Position numbers and translations under genes: made by a program
The notes under the pieces: model-generated
What the model was told of the DNA's origin: nothing
What the model saw: the letters and a program-made list of their open reading frames with translations, nothing else
Database searches by the model: none
Assembly (NCBI RefSeq): GCF_019597925.1
Contig: NZ_CP080442.1
Span: 69,678-101,677 of the forward strand
Direction: 5' to 3'
From: [Clostridium] scindens
Lineage (GTDB): Bacteria; Bacillota; Clostridia; Lachnospirales; Lachnospiraceae
Length of the DNA stretch: 32,000 nucleotides
In this document: positions 3,001 through 30,174 of the stretch, piece by piece
Numbering within the stretch: position 1 is the stretch's first letter
Layout: the number at the start of each line of letters is the position of its first letter

Positions 3001-3683
3001 TGACCTTTGGAAGCGAATGCGGAGTGAAAACGATCGGAGAAGAAGCATTCTGGAATACGGCGCTGAAGTCTATCGACCTTCCGGAAGGAGTCACAGGCCT
3101 TCTTTCAGGCGCGTTTGGCTGTACACAATTGACAGAGATCAAGATTCCCGCCAATATGGAAAATATATATTACTCCGTCTTTGATAGCTGCTCGAAACTT
3201 AAAAAAGTAGAGTTTAGCAGTGACATTCCGCCAAGCCTGATCCTATATGGGGTAGGATATGGATATCTCTTTGGCATGGATCTGCCGGATGACTTCCGTA
3301 TTGTGCTATCAGGAAATGCGGCTGGAAAAGAGGAAGCCTATATTGAGGCATGGAAATATGCTATGATAGGCTACGGAGCGGATGATCAGAATGAACTGTC
3401 GCAAGACCAGATAAGAGAAGGCGAGAATATCGTGCGGAGACTGCTGGGGCTTGAGGCGGCGCGCATTGAGGCGGCTCCTGCACCGGTAGCGCCGGATGCC
3501 ATGCCAGCGCAGGAAGAAGAGAACGAGAGCGAAGATGCCGGGGGCGAGCCGCAGATTGACGATGTACAAGACAAGGCGGAAGATGCTGGAACCGGCAATG
3601 GGAACGCCGGGACAGATGCAGAGGCCGACCATGCAGAGCCGGAGTCCGGCAAGGCAGAGAATGAGGGGGAAGAAGAGTTATGA
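48..3683 (+). CDS. Large membrane-anchored surface protein with BspA-type leucine-rich repeats, a Pro/Asp/Gly-rich N-terminal linker and an acidic C-terminal tail
   Basis: 1211-aa ORF. N-terminal hydrophobic anchor (AALKRIIAAGAVIVGLPIVW). Repeated LRR_5-like units (IGEGAFEKCREIQGI; IGDYAFMDSGVTGDIILPDTLRYLGGYTFYGCTGISSIHI; IGEEAFWNTALKSIDLPEGV). No LPXTG motif seen. The stop overlaps the next start (ATGA at 3680-3683). Confidence 0.8.
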   Translation: MKRSSLWGWITGKAALKRIIAAGAVIVGLPIVWHSYQNGGIFDPDSYAKNQKVQDNQVIFPEEDEYSQEDGGKGDSDLWEKDHKAEEKLNPEDMPDSSILFETKGKLAEFGSADQMTSDANQPGGIPGSPDGDDGPTILVPGGDGSITVPDGTFGPDGNHNGNGSEGNGGGDDSHPSVDPDPIIPDPDPRPELPPDIYEGLIPVETFPDGGISGDGSNVKITLRLTEDIYETNPIYYGEVLDDWKLFCAVCVYVDVDSGEGMSTIYRIEDYNENFKIGSFPKVAKEDFSVDFYFRPNKGSKWQKETWNYKVKPFKVMFSGWEEGTYSSPAWYPQIGETRNLLNYYPDVLPEEWVDIRSLPIDLPEMFPGWSETPQGEPVPLIYAPMLPGRHVLYPLELVPVPEGMSVSMEMNWNYWMCLQTLNEYTGSREMLEVPDGIGMIDLYGVSVDAIKIPSSVLEVNLDAFGLEVSQSYQVDEENPNYASFEGMLLNKDKTVLYAVPSEKKTVTVPETVTYAEISNNAIEEMHFQSGMPIKLELENLHDASLYVPAEAYFTYLAAWGDRLGSNRLLPDNGADAEFIIQDGAILSRDGKILYGLLDSVGGIYAVPDKVEYIEEGAFAGSASLSTVILPDSVKSLNAQAMTGRQISCIICLGAEPPAIKGDSFDNLDVLQVQVPKGAGESYVDAWTQALGREKAEAIVTEAFNQMESKDGYTYLTQEDGAVLLKVPEDLVYFNGNELQDVTIKEIGSNVFSNCGQLLVAELPESVKRIGEGAFEKCREIQGIVSYSTDTVTVGENAFAGCSKLRFLAFNAASATFENEYWPGGGMKYCVPEGASGYNGNHVPPGCASYFLESQNEGRLLYGEDEEGRYLLAATDNITGEVLLLPDTLEIDDEAMSGCGESFTLDSAGMARLRYIGDYAFMDSGVTGDIILPDTLRYLGGYTFYGCTGISSIHIDGPLDWYKNEFHGPELRSSVFSGCTNLETVTFGSECGVKTIGEEAFWNTALKSIDLPEGVTGLLSGAFGCTQLTEIKIPANMENIYYSVFDSCSKLKKVEFSSDIPPSLILYGVGYGYLFGMDLPDDFRIVLSGNAAGKEEAYIEAWKYAMIGYGADDQNELSQDQIREGENIVRRLLGLEAARIEAAPAPVAPDAMPAQEEENESEDAGGEPQIDDVQDKAEDAGTGNGNAGTDAEADHAEPESGKAENEGEEEL

Positions 3684-23329: not shown

Positions 23330-23353
23330 TTTGGCATAAGTAATCAATAACAA

Positions 23354-23582
23354 CGAAAACCCGCTAGCCATAAGGCTTGCGGGTTTTCGCTGTTGTTATA
23401 GTTATCTAAAGGAATGAGAGTAAAGCGCGCACCGGGCCTTTCCCGGTGTTTTACTTTATGAGGGGGGAGATAGTTGAGTGTTGATCAACTATCTGATACT
23501 TATTATAAAGGCTAATTGTGTCCAAAGTGTTTTCATTCTCTTAAAGAAAACGAAAAGTTCTTAAAAAGCTCTTAAGAAGGAG
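23354..23582. repeat. Structured non-coding repeat module, copy 1 (229 bp)
   Basis: Hairpin 1 at 23360-23383, hairpin 2 at 23430-23448, a G6 run at 23462-23467 and hairpin 3 at 23468-23494. TGTCCAA at 23519-23525. TCTTAA motifs at 23539, 23559 and 23570. Ends in AAGGAG. Differs from copy 2 by 6 substitutions over 192 nt. Confidence 0.9.
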
Positions 23583-23686
23583 AAGAAAATGATACAAAAA
23601 CCTCTGCTTGACATTCTTAGATTAAAATGTAACAATAGTTGCGTAACTGATGTAACATAATAAAACTTATATAGAGGTAAGCCAGT

Positions 23687-25101: not shown

Positions 25102-25114
25102 TATGTAGAAACAG

Positions 25115-25342
25115 CGAAAACCCGCTAACCTTTCGGCTAACGGGCTTCGTTGTTGTTATAGTTATCTAAAGGAATGAGAGTAAAGTGCGCACCGGGCCTT
25201 CCCCGGTGTTTTACTTTATGAGGGGGGAGATAGTTGAGTGTTGATCAACTATCTGATACTTATTATAAAGGCTAATTGTGTCCAAAGTGTTTTCATTCTC
25301 TAAAAGAAAAAGAAAAGTTCTTAAAAACATCTTAAGAAGGAG
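25115..25342. repeat. Structured non-coding repeat module, copy 2 (228 bp)
   Basis: Collinear with copy 1 at a constant offset of 1760 from 25151 to 25342. The left ~85 nt match copy 3 with only 2 differences. Hairpin 1 at 25121-25144. Confidence 0.9.
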
Positions 25343-25505
25343 TTAAGCAATGCTTAGGAGGGCATTTAAGAACGGACGAGAGGCCATCAGTCCAGCATGT
25401 CCGAATACAAATGAAGTGACTTTGAAAAAGCGGAGTGTTACAATGGAAGAGATCATGATGGTCTATGATTTATAACTGATAAATTGAGAGAAAGGACAAG
25501 AGATA

Positions 25506-27460: not shown

Positions 27461-27587
27461 GTCATAGACATCTGATTTTTTATGGCTGCGCCATGTTCTG
27501 TATGGATTTTATATTATAACGGCCGGACTTGATATTTGCTATAGTCAAAAAGGAAAAAAGGAGAATCCGGGGAAGCCGGATACAGAG

Positions 27588-27813
27588 CGAAAACCCGCTA
27601 ACCTTGCGGCTAACGGGTTTCGTTGTTGTTATAGTTATCTAAAGGAATGAGAGTAAAGTGCGCACCGGGCTATATCCGGTGTTTTACTTTATGAGGGGGG
27701 GGGAGATAGTGAGTGTTAATCAACTATCTGAATCTAAGTATAAAAGAAAAATATGTCCAAAGTATGTTGAATCTCTAAAAGAAAAAGAAAAATTCTTAAG
27801 AAGGACTTAAGAA
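27588..27813. repeat. Structured non-coding repeat module, copy 3 (226 bp, diverged right half)
   Basis: Hairpin 1 at 27594-27617, hairpin 2 at 27663-27681 and a G9 run at 27695-27703. TGTCCAA at 27754-27760. TTCTTAAGAA palindrome at 27793-27802 and CTTAAGAA at 27806-27813. Ends 14 nt from the stop codon of the - strand Spo0A_C-like gene. Confidence 0.85.
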
Positions 27814-27827
27814 CTTGGGAAGAAAAC

Positions 27828-28178
27828 CTAAACCAGCACGGCTACGGCTTCTTTCTGCCTTAAATGAGCAGTAAGGATATCTAAAAATTCGCTGGATGTA
27901 GGCTGCGAGTCAAGAGGACGAAGGGCAATTTCCTGAAGCAGGCGGCGGTTGCCTCTTTCCCAACAGACTCTAATGACGGTTCTGATATCTCTTTCTACGC
28001 TGCTGCTAGTAGTATGATAGTATTTTGCAATCTGAGGATATAATAATTTGCTCACGGACAGAAGATAGTCTTCGTCTCTCAAACATAGTTTCACCCCATA
28101 GTTCAGATACCGGTATCCACGGTAGGTTGCGCCGATGCCAAGAGCACGTATAAGACATTCGATTTCTAGTTCGCTCAT
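27828..28178 (-). CDS. Stand-alone Spo0A C-terminal (DNA-binding) domain protein
   Basis: ALGIGATYRGYRYLNYGV...LYPQIAKYYHTTSSSVERDIRTVIRVCWERGN parallels the Spo0A effector domain (...KGYLYL...[32 protein letters not shown]). There is no receiver domain. Start at ATG 28178 is preferred (RBS GAGGA 7 nt upstream) over the GTG at 28274. Confidence 0.75.
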   Translation of the reverse strand: MSELEIECLIRALGIGATYRGYRYLNYGVKLCLRDEDYLLSVSKLLYPQIAKYYHTTSSSVERDIRTVIRVCWERGNRRLLQEIALRPLDSQPTSSEFLDILTAHLRQKEAVAVLV

Positions 28179-28286
28179 GTGATTTTCCTCATCTAATGCC
28201 TTACATTGAAAAACAAATATGCTATGTGCTTCTATTATATAGGATATTTCTTCGATATGTTGCGACTCGGACACAATAAGTAAGAG

Positions 28287-28303
28287 TTCGACTCATTTCG
28301 ACA
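28287..28303 (-). promoter_or_regulatory. Tandem Spo0A-box-like sites (AGTCGAA and TGTCGAA on the - strand, 10-bp spacing)
   Basis: TTCGACT at 28287-28293 and TTCGACA at 28297-28303 on the + strand. The second is a perfect match to the Bacillus 0A box TGTCGAA. Located just upstream of the -35 of the GH25 promoter. Confidence 0.45.
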
Positions 28304-28365: not shown

Positions 28366-29343
28366 ATGAGCATCCATGGAATAGATGTAAGCAGATTTCA
28401 GGGCAGCATAGACTGGGAGGCCGTAAGAGCGGGCGGAATACAGTTTGCCATGATCCGGGCCGGTTATGGAGAAGGGACCGTGGACCAGGAGTTCAGGAGA
28501 AATGCCAGCCAGTGCAATCAGGCTGGGCTGCCGTTCGGAGTGTACTGGTTTTCCTATGCGTATACGCCGGAAATGGCCAGGCAGGAGGCGGAATTCTGCA
28601 TTAATGCCATATCCGGATACGAGGTACAGTATCCGGTCTGCTTTGACTTTGAATATGCATCGGTAGACTATGCGGAAAATCAAGGCGTAAATGTGACAAA
28701 GGAACTGGCCACTTCTCTGGTAGATGCATTCTGTCAGAGAGTTGAGGAGTTGGGATATTTTGCCATGTATTACAGCAACCTGGATTTTCTTAACCGGATG
28801 TTCGACGCTTCCTTAAGAAGCAAGTATGCGCTCTGGTACGCGCAGTATGCTGCAGAGCCAGCTGTCAGCGGAATGGCTATTTGGCAGTATAGTGACACTG
28901 GGCGAGTAAATGGCATATCTGGGAACGTTGACCAGGATATTGCCTATTATGATCTGGCAAATGTAATATCCAGGGCTGGACTGAATCGGCTAAGAGGCGA
29001 GGTATCTACGCCGGATTCCGCGACGCCGGAACCCAATGACGTGATTACCTATATCGTTAAGCCTGGGGATACCTTAAGCGGGATAGCGCTTAGGTTTGGA
29101 ACGACATATCAGGAGATTGCCGCGTACAACAACATTTCTAATCCCAATCTAATCTATGCGGGACAGCGTCTGCTGATCCCACTGGGATATAATCCGCAAA
29201 AAGTGCGCTATTACACCATTCAGCCAGGGGATACCTTAAGCGGAATTGCCCTTAAGTTTGGAACGACCGTGGCGCAGCTGCAGCGCCTGAACGGCATTCG
29301 CAATCCCAACCTGATCTATGCGGGAACTACGATCAGAGTATGA
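28366..29343 (+). CDS. Glycoside hydrolase family 25 muramidase with two C-terminal LysM domains
   Basis: 325 aa. N-terminal [13 protein letters not shown]...FAMIRAGYG and DQDIAYYD. Two LysM repeats ([19 protein letters not shown]...[12 protein letters not shown] and [19 protein letters not shown]...[11 protein letters not shown]). Confidence 0.9.
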
Positions 29344-29361: not shown

Positions 29362-29399
29362 GGCCTGGAATCCAGATACTGGAAGCCGGGCCTTTTTTT
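29362..29399 (+). terminator. Intrinsic terminator after the GH25 gene
   Basis: Long imperfect hairpin GGCCTGGAATCCAG ata CTGGAAGCCGGGCC followed by a T7 run. Confidence 0.7.
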
Positions 29400-29478
29400 C
29401 ATAATATCTTAAGAAAATTCCCAGATTGCTCTTAAAAAATCCCTGCTATTCTTGTATAGTATAAGGGAGGTGATGAAA

Positions 29479-30174
29479 ATGTCTAAAATATTAGTATGTG
29501 ATGATGATAAGGAAATCGTAGAGGCCATCGATATATATCTGTCCCAGGAAGGGTATGAAGTATTAAAGGCATATGATGGGGAAGAAGCACTGAAGGTATT
29601 GGGCAAGGAGAAGATAGACCTTCTGGTAATCGACGTCATGATGCCAAAACTGGACGGGATCAGAGCCACCCTTAAGATCCGGGAAGCCAACAATATGCCA
29701 ATCATTATTCTTTCGGCAAAATCCGAAGACGCAGATAAGATCCTTGGCCTTAACGTAGGTGCGGACGATTATGTGACGAAGCCTTTCAATCCATTGGAAC
29801 TGGTTGCAAGAGTCAAGTCGCAGCTTCGGCGTTATACGCAGCTTGGCAGTACTGCGAATCATAAAAATGAAGCGGTCTATGAAGTTGGAGGCCTGTCGAT
29901 CAACGATGACTTAAAGGAAGTAACGGTGGATGGAGAGCCAGTGAAGCTTACGCCGATCGAATATAATATTCTGCTACTGCTGGTAAAAAATCAAGGGAAA
30001 GTATTCTCTATAGACCAGATCTATGAAAGTATATGGAATGAGGACGCCATTGGCGTAGATAATACGGTGGCGGTACATATCAGGCATATACGTGAAAAAA
30101 TAGAGATCAATCCAAAAGAGCCCCGTTATCTGAAGGTAGTATGGGGAGTCGGATATAAGGTGGAGAAGCTTTAG
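29479..30174 (+). CDS. OmpR/PhoB-family response regulator
   Basis: Start at ATG 29479 (MSKILVCDDD), 8 nt after GGGAGG. Receiver motifs DLLVIDVMMPKLDG and LSAK. Winged-helix C-terminus (LTPIEYNILLLLVKNQGKVFS...YLKVVWGVGYK). Confidence 0.9.
   Translation: MSKILVCDDDKEIVEAIDIYLSQEGYEVLKAYDGEEALKVLGKEKIDLLVIDVMMPKLDGIRATLKIREANNMPIIILSAKSEDADKILGLNVGADDYVTKPFNPLELVARVKSQLRRYTQLGSTANHKNEAVYEVGGLSINDDLKEVTVDGEPVKLTPIEYNILLLLVKNQGKVFSIDQIYESIWNEDAIGVDNTVAVHIRHIREKIEINPKEPRYLKVVWGVGYKVEKL

What the first reader, a model, noticed from the sequence alone, without database searches (positions are those of the whole stretch)
25115..25270. Wobble logic and GNRA loops suggest hairpin 1 functions on the minus strand, giving a candidate ~140-150 nt C-rich sRNA in three paralogous copies
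**Evidence for the minus strand:**
- Read on the + strand, hairpin 1 of copies 2 and 3 (CCCGCTAACC / GGCTAACGGG) has C/A and A/C mismatches.
- Read on the - strand, the same positions become U-G and G-U wobbles (CCCGUUAGCC-loop-GGUUAGCGGG).
- The - strand loops become GNRA tetraloops (GAAA in copy 2, GCAA in copy 3).
- The invariant left edge CGAAAA gives a UUUUCG tail in all three copies on the - strand. The + strand tail varies (TTTTCG, CTTCG, TTTCG).
- Copy 1 changes three stem positions relative to copies 2 and 3 yet keeps pairing on the - strand, apart from one A/A mismatch.

**Predicted minus-strand transcript:**
- starts after a -10 TATAAT (complement of 23502-23507 and 25262-25267; TATACT in copy 3);
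- folds a 5' hairpin;
- exposes single-stranded CUCCCCCCUCAU, which is anti-Shine-Dalgarno-like and comparable to the C-rich seeds of Firmicute sRNAs such as RsaE/RoxS;
- then hairpin 2, a CU-rich invariant linker and the terminator.

**Caveats:**
- There is no good -35 at 17 bp; TTGGAC sits only 12 bp from the -10.
- The copy 3 variant of hairpin 2 is a G-U pair on the + strand but an A/C mismatch on the - strand.
Basis: partly seen in the sequence, partly recalled or inferred. Interest (0 to 1): 0.75.

Follow-up and report, generated by a model that had tools for sequence, protein, structure and literature searches.

The report
Multicopy C-rich small RNA, minus strand
The three repeats are most likely copies of a small regulatory RNA gene read from the minus strand; it belongs to a family found in at least 120 Lachnospiraceae (gut bacteria) species that matches no Rfam entry and that I found described in no paper.

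Summary
The window holds three ~240-nt copies of one module. More than 300 related modules were collected, almost all from Lachnospiraceae genomes and gut metagenomes.

Three lines of evidence point to the minus strand:
- **Hairpin mismatches.** In the variable hairpins, single mismatches are almost all A·C on the + strand, which is G·U on the minus strand. The counts are 72:1, 39:8 and 15:3. An independent metagenome set gives 46:12, 16:5 and 3:0.
- **Promoter.** A near-invariant TATAnT -10 box exists only on the minus strand, 7 nt before the conserved 5' hairpin.
- **Flanking genes.** Genes on the promoter side point either way (64 + / 59 -), so this is not a 5' UTR.

The predicted RNA is ~140 nt here and ~80-100 nt in a shorter form elsewhere. 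From 5' to 3' it has a hairpin, single-stranded CUCCCCCCUCAU, a variable hairpin, an invariant CU-rich linker and a terminator.

A direct repeat with an 11-bp period sits where a -35 box would be, so the promoter probably needs an activator. Long-form copies lie next to a VanR-like two-component system and an orphan Spo0A C-domain gene.

Expression, regulator and targets are all inferred. In design it resembles csRNA, LhrC and RoxS/RsaE, but it matches none of them.

The parts
25113..25255 (-). Predicted sRNA, copy 2 (the finding), about 140 nt, long form
   Evidence: Fold of the minus strand gives three hairpins, z = -6.65. The ends are inferred from the -10 spacing and the terminator.
25228..25254 (-). 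5' hairpin AGAUAGUUGA-loop-UCAACUAUCU, starting at or 1 nt after the inferred transcription start
   Evidence: The RNA's 5' arm is invariant in homologues. Its 3' arm varies through G·U pairs on the minus strand.
25209..25227 (-). Single-stranded C-rich region 1 (CCCCCCUCAUAAAGUAAAA); the CUCCCCCCUCAU core is the family-wide conserved candidate seed
   Evidence: Unpaired in the minimum-energy and centroid folds. Conserved in short and long forms.
25179..25218 (-). Hairpin 2 (CACCGGG..CCCGGUG, 25190-25208) on a basal AAAGU/ACUUU stem
   Evidence: Homologues carry many different hairpin sequences here, with A·C: G·T on the + strand of 15:3 and 16:5.
25150..25178 (-). Single-stranded CU-rich region 2 (ACUCUCAUUCCUUUAGAUAACUAUAACAACAA), specific to the long form and almost invariant
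   Evidence: Invariant columns in alignment A3 of 34 long forms. Unpaired in the fold.
25115..25149 (-). Hairpin 1 with UUUUCG tail, the intrinsic terminator of the sRNA; also usable in the other direction by the upstream + gene
   Evidence: Flagged as a minus-strand terminator. 10 of 11 pairs show compensatory changes; covariation score 0.314 against 0.136 in shuffles, 0 of 500. G·U pairs number 36 on the minus reading and 8 on the plus reading.
25262..25267 (-). -10 box TATAAT
   Evidence: Position-specific conservation T99 A100 T88 A72 N T100 in 127 homologues, 7 nt before the hairpin.
25274..25293 (-). Direct repeat ACAYAnTTT / GACACATTT with an 11-nt period in place of a -35 box; candidate activator site
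   Evidence: Of 308 matches to the promoter matrix in 1.9 Mb, 302 were classed as sRNA modules by the script's hairpin test, and one of the other six is a variant sRNA copy.
25318..25338 (-). Upstream TTCTTAAA-N5-CTTAAGAA boxes, about -68 and -79
   Evidence: Tandem NTTAAR boxes occur in 29 of 119 long forms and 3 of 116 short forms. Similar boxes lie in the conserved leader of the neighbouring response-regulator genes.
23352..23495 (-). Predicted sRNA, copy 1; -10 at 23502-23507, repeat boxes 23514-23533
27586..27730 (-). Predicted sRNA, copy 3; -10 TATACT at 27737-27742, repeat boxes 27749-27768 (best match to the family promoter, 96th percentile)
27565..27581 (-). Second terminator-like hairpin with a T run just past the copy 3 terminator
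27828..28274 (-). Gene for a protein consisting only of a Spo0A C-terminal DNA-binding domain, directly upstream of and co-directional with copy 3; candidate regulator
   Evidence: Pfam Spo0A_C, E = 1e-32. Present on the promoter side of 19 of 78 long-form modules and 0 of 91 on the terminator side.
29479..30174 (+). VanR-like OmpR-family response regulator, followed by a histidine kinase; candidate regulator
   Evidence: Present on the promoter side of 30 of 78 long-form modules, always divergent, against 1 of 91 on the other side.

Best explanation
Each copy is an independent gene for a small non-coding RNA transcribed from the minus strand.

**Well supported by comparative sequence evidence:**
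- The module is conserved in over 300 loci, almost all from Lachnospiraceae.
- Its variable hairpins are maintained by compensatory and G·U changes that make sense only on the minus strand.
- A canonical -10 box exists only on that strand, at a fixed distance from the conserved 5' hairpin.
- The orientation of flanking genes is not fixed.

**Inferred:**
- RNA polymerase is recruited by an activator bound to the 11-bp-phased direct repeat (ACAYAnTTT, GACACATTT) that replaces the -35 box.
- Transcription starts at or just before AGAUAG and ends at hairpin 1, giving about 140 nt here and about 80-100 nt in the short form.
- The 5' hairpin protects the RNA.
- The unpaired CUCCCCCCUCAU, and in long forms UCUCAUUCCUUUAG, resemble the 3' tail of 16S rRNA. 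They probably pair with purine-rich ribosome-binding sites and block translation, as the C-rich sRNAs of other Firmicutes do.
- Several copies raise the dose or allow separate control.

**Regulator.** It is unknown. Candidates are the VanR-like two-component system and the orphan Spo0A-C-domain protein encoded beside long-form copies, or Spo0A itself. Linkage to a Mur ligase, a GH25/LysM muramidase and a VanR-like system hints at a cell-envelope or sporulation signal.
For: - **Repeats and homologues:**
- **Strand, from mismatches:** A·C against G·T on the + strand is 72:1, 39:8 and 15:3, and 46:12, 16:5 and 3:0 in an independent set.
- **Strand, from folding:** the minus-strand fold of the short-form hairpin is better by 3.1 kcal/mol on average, in 65 loci against 22, Wilcoxon p = 1.5e-9.
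- **Terminator helix:** 10 of 11 pairs have compensatory changes, and 0 of 500 shuffles reach the observed score. 92% of cells pair on the minus reading and 85% on the plus reading.
- **Promoter:** -10 TATAnT and the direct repeat. 302 of 308 matrix matches were classed as sRNA modules.
- **Fold of copy 2:** z = -6.65 with both seeds unpaired.
- **Flanking genes:** the promoter-side gene is + in 64 loci and - in 59.
- **Synteny:** the short form lies between a DHH (RecJ-like) gene and a Mur ligase gene in about 40 loci.
- **Linkage:** response regulator in 30 of 78 and Spo0A_C gene in 19 of 78 long-form modules, on the promoter side only.
- **No coding potential:** no conserved ORF.
- **Design parallels:** csRNA (PMC3091779) and LhrC (PMC4132741).
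Against: - No transcript was observed. Expression, ends, regulator and targets are all inferred.
- The U-tract does not discriminate the strands in the short form (4.8 against 4.7 T in 9 nt). Those terminators are bidirectional.
- Hairpin 2 followed by TTTACTTTAT also scores as terminator-like on the + strand.
- G·T pairs on the + strand are a minority but not absent (8, 3, 12 and 5).
- No conserved target was found. The neighbouring Mur ligase start region is no more complementary than to shuffled seeds (mean z = -0.45). The only strong in-window match is one MoxR-like gene.
- The 5' hairpin shows no compensatory change. Its RNA 5' arm is simply invariant, which is unexplained.
Confidence: 0.75

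Rival explanations
1. The minus-strand RNA is real but is not an anti-ribosome-binding-site base-pairing regulator. It could titrate a protein through the invariant 5' arm AGAUAGUUGAU or the invariant linker. It could act as an antisense RNA against read-through from the convergent upstream gene. It could also work through a structural switch between the 5' hairpin and the linker (AUAGUU can pair with AACUAU).
For: The 5' arm and the 27-nt linker are conserved at the sequence level far beyond what a short seed needs. No conserved target was found. The left-hand gene is convergent in 85 of 125 loci.
Against: The unpaired C-rich and CU-rich stretches between hairpins are the hallmark of csRNA, LhrC and RoxS-type regulators. 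The flanking genes differ between loci, so no fixed antisense partner exists.
Confidence: 0.13
2. The module works on the + strand. Hairpins 1 and 2 would be tandem terminators for the upstream + genes, followed by a promoter (TTGATC-17-TATAAA in copies 1 and 2) and a 5' leader ending in GAAGGAG for the downstream + genes.
For: All three copies follow + strand genes, and copies 1 and 2 precede + strand genes. Hairpin 2 plus a T-rich tail is terminator-like on the + strand.
Against: - Mismatch asymmetry strongly favours the minus strand.
- The conserved hexamer reads AnTATA on the + strand, which is not a -10 box.
- The downstream gene is on the - strand in 59 of 123 loci, including copy 3.
- The TTGATC box is not conserved.
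- The distal part of the module differs between loci.
Confidence: 0.05
3. It is a DNA-level repeat: a REP- or MITE-like mobile element, or a recombination site separating gene cassettes.
For: It is multicopy and palindrome-rich, and it separates small accessory-looking gene sets in the window. Some homologues lie in viral-binned contigs beside integrases.
Against: - It has no terminal inverted repeats. Target-site duplications were not looked for.
- The only inverted repeats found are the terminator palindromes.
- The short form sits as a single copy at one syntenic site across many genera.
- G·U-specific compensatory change implies selection on an RNA.
- The window is ordinary chromosome (MetRS, KsgA, citrate synthase).
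Confidence: 0.03
4. It is a type I toxin-antitoxin pair: a small + strand peptide starting after the GGGGGGAG ribosome-binding-like site, with the minus-strand RNA as antitoxin.
For: Copies 1 and 2 carry a 29-codon hydrophobic-looking ORF, and copy 3 and L006 carry a 33-codon ORF, after an SD-like G run.
Against: Across 210 modules the longest such ORF has a median of 16 codons. Only 27 reach 25 codons, in different frames and with in-frame stops.
Confidence: 0.02

Closest known systems
csRNAs (CiaR-dependent small RNAs, ccnA-E) of Streptococcus
   Same: - Two to six paralogous genes per genome.
- The promoter has no -35 box. A response-regulator direct repeat with an 11-bp period lies about 10 bp before the -10 box.
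- The RNA is a 5' stem-loop, an unpaired stretch complementary to Shine-Dalgarno and AUG sequences, and a terminator.
- Sizes are 51-202 nt (PMC3091779).
   Different: - The -35-proximal repeat here is ACAYAnTTT / GACACATTT, not NTTAAG-N5-TTTAAG. CTTAAG-N5-CTTAAG-like boxes do occur, but about 45 nt further upstream and only in some long forms.
- The host family is different.
- No Rfam model matches the module.
- CAU lies 3' of the C run, so it cannot pair with a start codon downstream of the same Shine-Dalgarno sequence.
LhrC1-5 of Listeria monocytogenes
   Same: Multicopy and partly tandem. Strictly dependent on a cell-envelope two-component system (LisRK). Redundant CU-rich sites bind ribosome-binding regions (PMC4132741).
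   Different: LhrC carries UCCC in both loops as well as in the linker. Here the C-rich parts are in single-stranded linkers and the loops are variable. No model match was found. The regulator here is unknown.
RoxS/RsaE of Bacillus and Staphylococcus
   Same: A C-rich sRNA of Firmicutes that targets Shine-Dalgarno sequences and is transcribed under an OmpR-family regulator (ResD/SrrA). This rests on my own knowledge and for the UCCC motif.
   Different: No sequence or structure similarity was detected by Rfam models. RoxS is single-copy and conserved in Bacillales, whereas this family is confined to Lachnospiraceae in the sample.

Membership tests
csRNA (CiaR-dependent sRNAs) | CiaR box NTTAAG-N5-TTTAAG 10 bp before the -10 box | tested here: not met
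   The repeat next to the -10 box is ACAYAnTTT / GACACATTT. CTTAAG-like tandem boxes lie at about -68 and -79 in 29 of 119 long forms.
csRNA (CiaR-dependent sRNAs) | Two stem-loops flanking an unpaired stretch complementary to ribosome-binding sequences; several paralogues | tested here: met
   Tandem arrays occur elsewhere (L087, L004, L016, L118).
csRNA (CiaR-dependent sRNAs) | Sequence and structure similarity to known members | tested here: not met
   No Rfam family reaches its threshold. Within the window module the only match at E up to 10 is a chance microRNA-model hit over the copy 1 terminator palindrome. In short-form loci only sub-threshold chance matches over terminators appear.
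LhrC | Three UCCC motifs in loop A, the linker and the terminator loop | tested here: not met
   C-rich stretches are in the linkers only. The hairpin loops vary and are not C-rich.
LhrC | LisRK-dependent transcription | not testable with these tools
   Only genomic linkage to a VanR-like response regulator and kinase could be shown.
RoxS/RsaE | Match to the family's covariance model | tested here: not met
RoxS/RsaE | C-rich unpaired regions that pair with Shine-Dalgarno sequences | tested here: inconclusive
   C-rich unpaired regions are present. Pairing to targets was not shown, and the one good in-window match is a MoxR-like start region at -21.9 kcal/mol.
Independent trans-acting sRNA gene (generic) | Own promoter, own intrinsic terminator, no ORF, position independent of neighbouring gene orientation | tested here: met
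   Transcription itself was not observed.

The most novel reading that the evidence does not exclude
This would be a Lachnospiraceae-wide multicopy riboregulator whose promoter is driven by a Spo0A-type protein.
- The 11-bp-phased boxes read TTnRACA on the minus strand. That is one or two bases away from the canonical 0A box TTCGACA.
- Canonical tandem 0A boxes lie only 500 nt away.
- An orphan Spo0A C-domain gene sits directly upstream of long-form copies.

The RNA would then be a previously unknown post-transcriptional arm of sporulation or cell-envelope decisions in dominant gut commensals. Its long-form paralogues would additionally be wired to a VanR-like two-component system.
Probability: 0.2. 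Interest if true: 0.75.

Novelty: new member of a known kind. Interest (0 to 1): 0.6.

Why it matters
My literature searches found no characterised regulatory RNA for Lachnospiraceae, one of the most abundant bacterial families of the human gut.

This family is conserved across at least 120 species-level genomes. It is often multicopy, and its promoter architecture is distinctive enough to find copies genome-wide.

It gives a concrete, testable entry point:
- a defined promoter motif with which to look for the regulator;
- two defined seed regions for target prediction;
- a genomic link to cell-wall genes, a VanR-like sensor system and a Spo0A-like factor.

Tried and rejected
- **Rfam.** The whole window was searched at gathering thresholds, the region at E up to 10, and eight homologous loci at E up to 1. 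Nothing real was found.
- **Plasmid collection.** No match.
- **+ strand small ORF or type I toxin.** Rejected because no conserved frame exists.
- **+ strand promoter and 5' UTR.** Rejected on gene orientation and on the -10 logic.
- **U-tract asymmetry as a strand test.** Uninformative, because the short-form terminators are symmetric.
- **Mur ligase start region as a conserved target.** No better than shuffled seeds.
- **Enrichment of seed complements at start sites in 1.9 Mb of fetched loci.** Too few sites to judge.
- **Regulon search with the promoter matrix.** Apart from sRNA genes, only two weak matches of uncertain meaning.
- **Canonical Spo0A control of the sRNA promoter.** The boxes lack the central CG, so a direct 0A box was not accepted.
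- **Literature.** Searches for a described Lachnospiraceae sRNA found none. Bulk catalogues of candidate structured RNAs from gut metagenomes (PMC8040213) could not be checked for an unnamed entry.
- **Not done.** I did not test whether the MoxR complementarity is conserved in other genomes.

Full report
**1. What is in the window**

A module of about 240 nt occurs three times, at about 23353-23590, 25113-25350 and 27586-27815. The copies are 79-96% identical. Read on the + strand, the module contains in order:
- hairpin 1 (CGAAAACCCGCTAACC..GGCTAACGGGTTTCG);
- an invariant linker (TTGTTGTTATAGTTATCTAAAGGAATGAGAGTAAAG);
- hairpin 2 (CACCGGG..CCCGGTG);
- TTTTACTTTATGAGGGGGGAG;
- hairpin 3 (AGATAGTTGA..TCAACTATCT);
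- ATTATA;
- TGTGTCCAAAGTGT;
- an A/T-rich stretch ending in TTCTTAA..CTTAAGAA.

The surrounding DNA is ordinary chromosome, with genes for methionyl-tRNA synthetase, KsgA, citrate synthase and DAP dehydrogenase.

**2. Relatives**

No Rfam family matches the module, and no plasmid does either.

BLAST against phage records found four unannotated human-faecal contigs. Their alignment showed that the conserved core is ATGAGGGGGG, then hairpin 3, a TATA box and TGTGTCCAAAGTGTGT. The hairpin to the left of the core has a different sequence in each.

A pattern built on hairpin 3 found 8 viral-binned contigs. Nearly all are Lachnospiraceae, including Dorea, Blautia, Oliverpabstia, Acetatifactor, Fusicatenibacter, Bariatricus, Schaedlerella and Mediterraneibacter.

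A second pattern that does not include hairpin 3 found at least 119 metagenome contigs, mostly from the human gut.

Two architectures exist:
- **Short form.** One variable GC-rich hairpin with A and T tracts lies directly beside TTCTTATGAGGGGGG and the core.
- **Long form.** This is the form in the window. It has hairpin 1 and the invariant linker in addition.

**3. Which strand**

The first test needs no alignment. In each variable hairpin I counted single transition mismatches flanked by Watson-Crick pairs. Neutral decay of a DNA palindrome should give A·C and G·T equally often. An RNA hairpin tolerates only the one that is G·U on the transcribed strand.

| Set | Hairpin | A·C : G·T on the + strand |
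|---|---|---|
| 93 short forms | terminator | 72 : 1 |
| 35 long forms | hairpin 1 | 39 : 8 |
| 35 long forms | hairpin 2 | 15 : 3 |
| 83 metagenome long forms | hairpin 1 | 46 : 12 |
| 83 metagenome long forms | hairpin 2 | 16 : 5 |
| 83 metagenome long forms | hairpin 3 | 3 : 0 |

Further results agree:
- Minus-strand folds of the short-form hairpin are on average 3.1 kcal/mol more stable. The minus strand wins in 65 loci against 22 (p = 1.5e-9).
- In the alignment of 34 long forms, 10 of 11 terminator pairs show compensatory changes. The covariation score is 0.314 against 0.136 in shuffles (0 of 500) and 0.05-0.09 when the partner is slid.
- The same cells pair in 92% of cases on the minus reading and 85% on the plus reading. 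G·U pairs number 36 on the minus reading and 8 on the plus reading.
- Copy 2 folds on the minus strand into three clean hairpins with both CU-rich segments unpaired, at -50.3 kcal/mol and z = -6.65. On the + strand z is -3.08 and hairpin 1 is lost.

One test failed to discriminate. The T content after the short-form hairpin is the same on both strands, so those terminators are bidirectional.

**4. Promoter**

In minus orientation, 127 homologues give this consensus:

ACAcA.TTTggaCACAtTT-N5-tTATa.T-N7-AGATAGTTGA

- The hexamer has T 99%, A 100%, T 88%, A 72%, N and T 100%. This is a canonical -10 box that reads as nonsense on the + strand.
- The distance to the hairpin puts the start at or just before AGAUAG. 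The RNA would be about 140 nt in the window.
- There is no -35 hexamer. This layout is typical of promoters activated by OmpR/PhoB-type regulators or by Spo0A. That link to activators is an inference.
- A position matrix of this region found 308 matches in 1.9 Mb of fetched DNA, and the script classed 302 of them as sRNA modules. One of the other six is a variant sRNA copy.
- The window copies score at the 54th, 54th and 96th percentile of the family.

**5. Not a leader, not coding**

The gene on the promoter side is on the + strand in 64 loci and on the - strand in 59. In the window, copy 3 faces a convergent gene.

The ORF that follows the SD-like G run on the + strand has a median length of 16 codons. 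Frames differ and in-frame stops occur.

**6. Genomic context**

The short form often lies between a DHH (RecJ-like) gene and a Mur ligase gene, in either orientation. It also occurs in tandem arrays, for example three copies 229 nt apart in L087.

Long forms are linked, on the promoter side only, to two regulator genes:

| Neighbour | Promoter side | Terminator side | Orientation |
|---|---|---|---|
| VanR-like OmpR-family regulator with kinase | 30 of 78 | 1 of 91 | always divergent |
| Gene encoding only a Spo0A C-terminal domain | 19 of 78 | 0 of 91 | always co-directional |

A GH25/LysM muramidase gene is often present as well.

The window shows exactly this arrangement:
- copy 3;
- the Spo0A_C gene at 27828-28274 (-);
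- GH25/LysM at 28366-29343 (+);
- the regulator at 29479-30174 (+);
- the kinase.

The regulator genes share a conserved leader with TCTTAAG-type boxes. Similar tandem boxes lie at about -68 and -79 of some long-form sRNA promoters, including all three window copies. They occur in 29 of 119 long forms and 3 of 116 short forms.

**7. How it probably works**

Comparative sequence evidence supports a conserved, structured, non-coding unit on the minus strand with its own promoter and terminator.

The mechanism is inferred, as follows:
- An activator binds the phased repeat and switches the gene on.
- The 5' hairpin stabilises the RNA.
- The unpaired CUCCCCCCUCAU, and in long forms UCUCAUUCCUUUAG, resemble the 3' tail of 16S rRNA (my knowledge of that sequence).
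- They pair with purine-rich ribosome-binding sites and repress translation.

This is the design of streptococcal csRNAs and of Listeria LhrC.

I could not find a conserved target. The adjacent Mur ligase start region is not specially complementary. The best match in the window is the start region of a MoxR-like ATPase gene (AAUGAGGGGGAAGA, -21.9 kcal/mol). That is a single, untested hit.

**8. Comparison and novelty**

The unit works like csRNA, LhrC or RoxS but is a member of none:
- the promoter boxes differ from the CiaR box;
- the C-rich motifs are not in the loops;
- no covariance model matches.

Literature searches in the held library found no description of a Lachnospiraceae sRNA. Bulk catalogues of candidate structured RNAs could contain it unnamed. 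I therefore rate it a new family of a known kind.

**9. Open points**

- The RNA's 5' arm AGAUAGUUGAU is invariant even where its partner changes. That suggests a sequence-specific role I cannot explain.
- The identity of the activator is open. The boxes read TTnRACA, close to the 0A box TTCGACA but without the central CG. Canonical tandem 0A boxes lie between the Spo0A_C gene and the muramidase gene.

Noticed in passing
window 28284-28300: Two canonical Spo0A boxes in tandem (TTCGACT CAT TTCGACA) lie between the Spo0A-C-domain gene and the GH25/LysM gene. Similar boxes are visible in the same position in L020, L028, L168 and L251.
   Followed up: partly
window 27828-28274 (-): A 148-aa protein consists only of the Spo0A C-terminal DNA-binding domain, with no receiver domain. 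It is a recurrent neighbour of the long-form sRNA. Its function is unknown.
   Followed up: partly
window 29398-29478; many loci: The leader of the VanR-like regulator gene is strongly conserved: ATATCTTAAGAAATT-N11-CTCTTAAAAAAT-N8-TTGTATAGTATAAGGGAGGTGATG. This suggests autoregulation through CTTAAG-type boxes.
   Followed up: partly
window 3655-3680: The start region of a MoxR-like AAA ATPase gene contains AAUGAGGGGGAAGA. It is the best complement to the sRNA C-run among 27 start regions in the window (-21.9 kcal/mol). The site overlaps the end of the upstream BspA-like LRR gene. Conservation was not tested.
   Followed up: partly
window 27565-27581 (-): A second terminator-like hairpin with a T run lies just beyond the copy 3 terminator on the minus strand.
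   Followed up: no
window 29050-29325: The direct repeats D4 and D5 (162-nt spacing) are the two LysM domains of the GH25 muramidase gene.
   Followed up: yes
window 23590-23664 and 25351-25476: Short ORFs of 24 and 41 codons follow the GAAGGAG at the promoter-distal edge of copies 1 and 2. The second is called as a gene in the metagenome record L133. They are unrelated to each other.
   Followed up: no
L087 (three copies, 229-nt spacing), L004, L016, L118; L159, L189, L199: Short forms occur in tandem arrays. Some long forms occur as pairs on opposite strands, which by position appear to be convergent pairs with facing terminators.
   Followed up: partly
L016 around 5130, L120 around 1438 (oriented coordinates): The terminator palindrome extends to include an inverted copy of the seed (CCCCTCATAAGAAAAC ... 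GTTTTCTTATGAGGGG). In these loci the C-run could be sequestered, or a partial inverted copy is present.
   Followed up: no
all homologues: The RNA's 5' arm AGAUAGUUGAU is invariant, while the 3' arm and the loop vary. This is unexplained. It could be a protein-binding site, a second seed, or a promoter-proximal DNA element.
   Followed up: partly
L067, L090: Two hits are labelled Bacteroides or Tidjanibacter metagenome-assembled genomes among an otherwise Lachnospiraceae list. This is probably binning contamination.
   Followed up: no
L035 around 5938: A variant copy has a changed 5' hairpin (CAGATAGATGAACAACACCTATCT) but the same promoter boxes and C-run.
   Followed up: no
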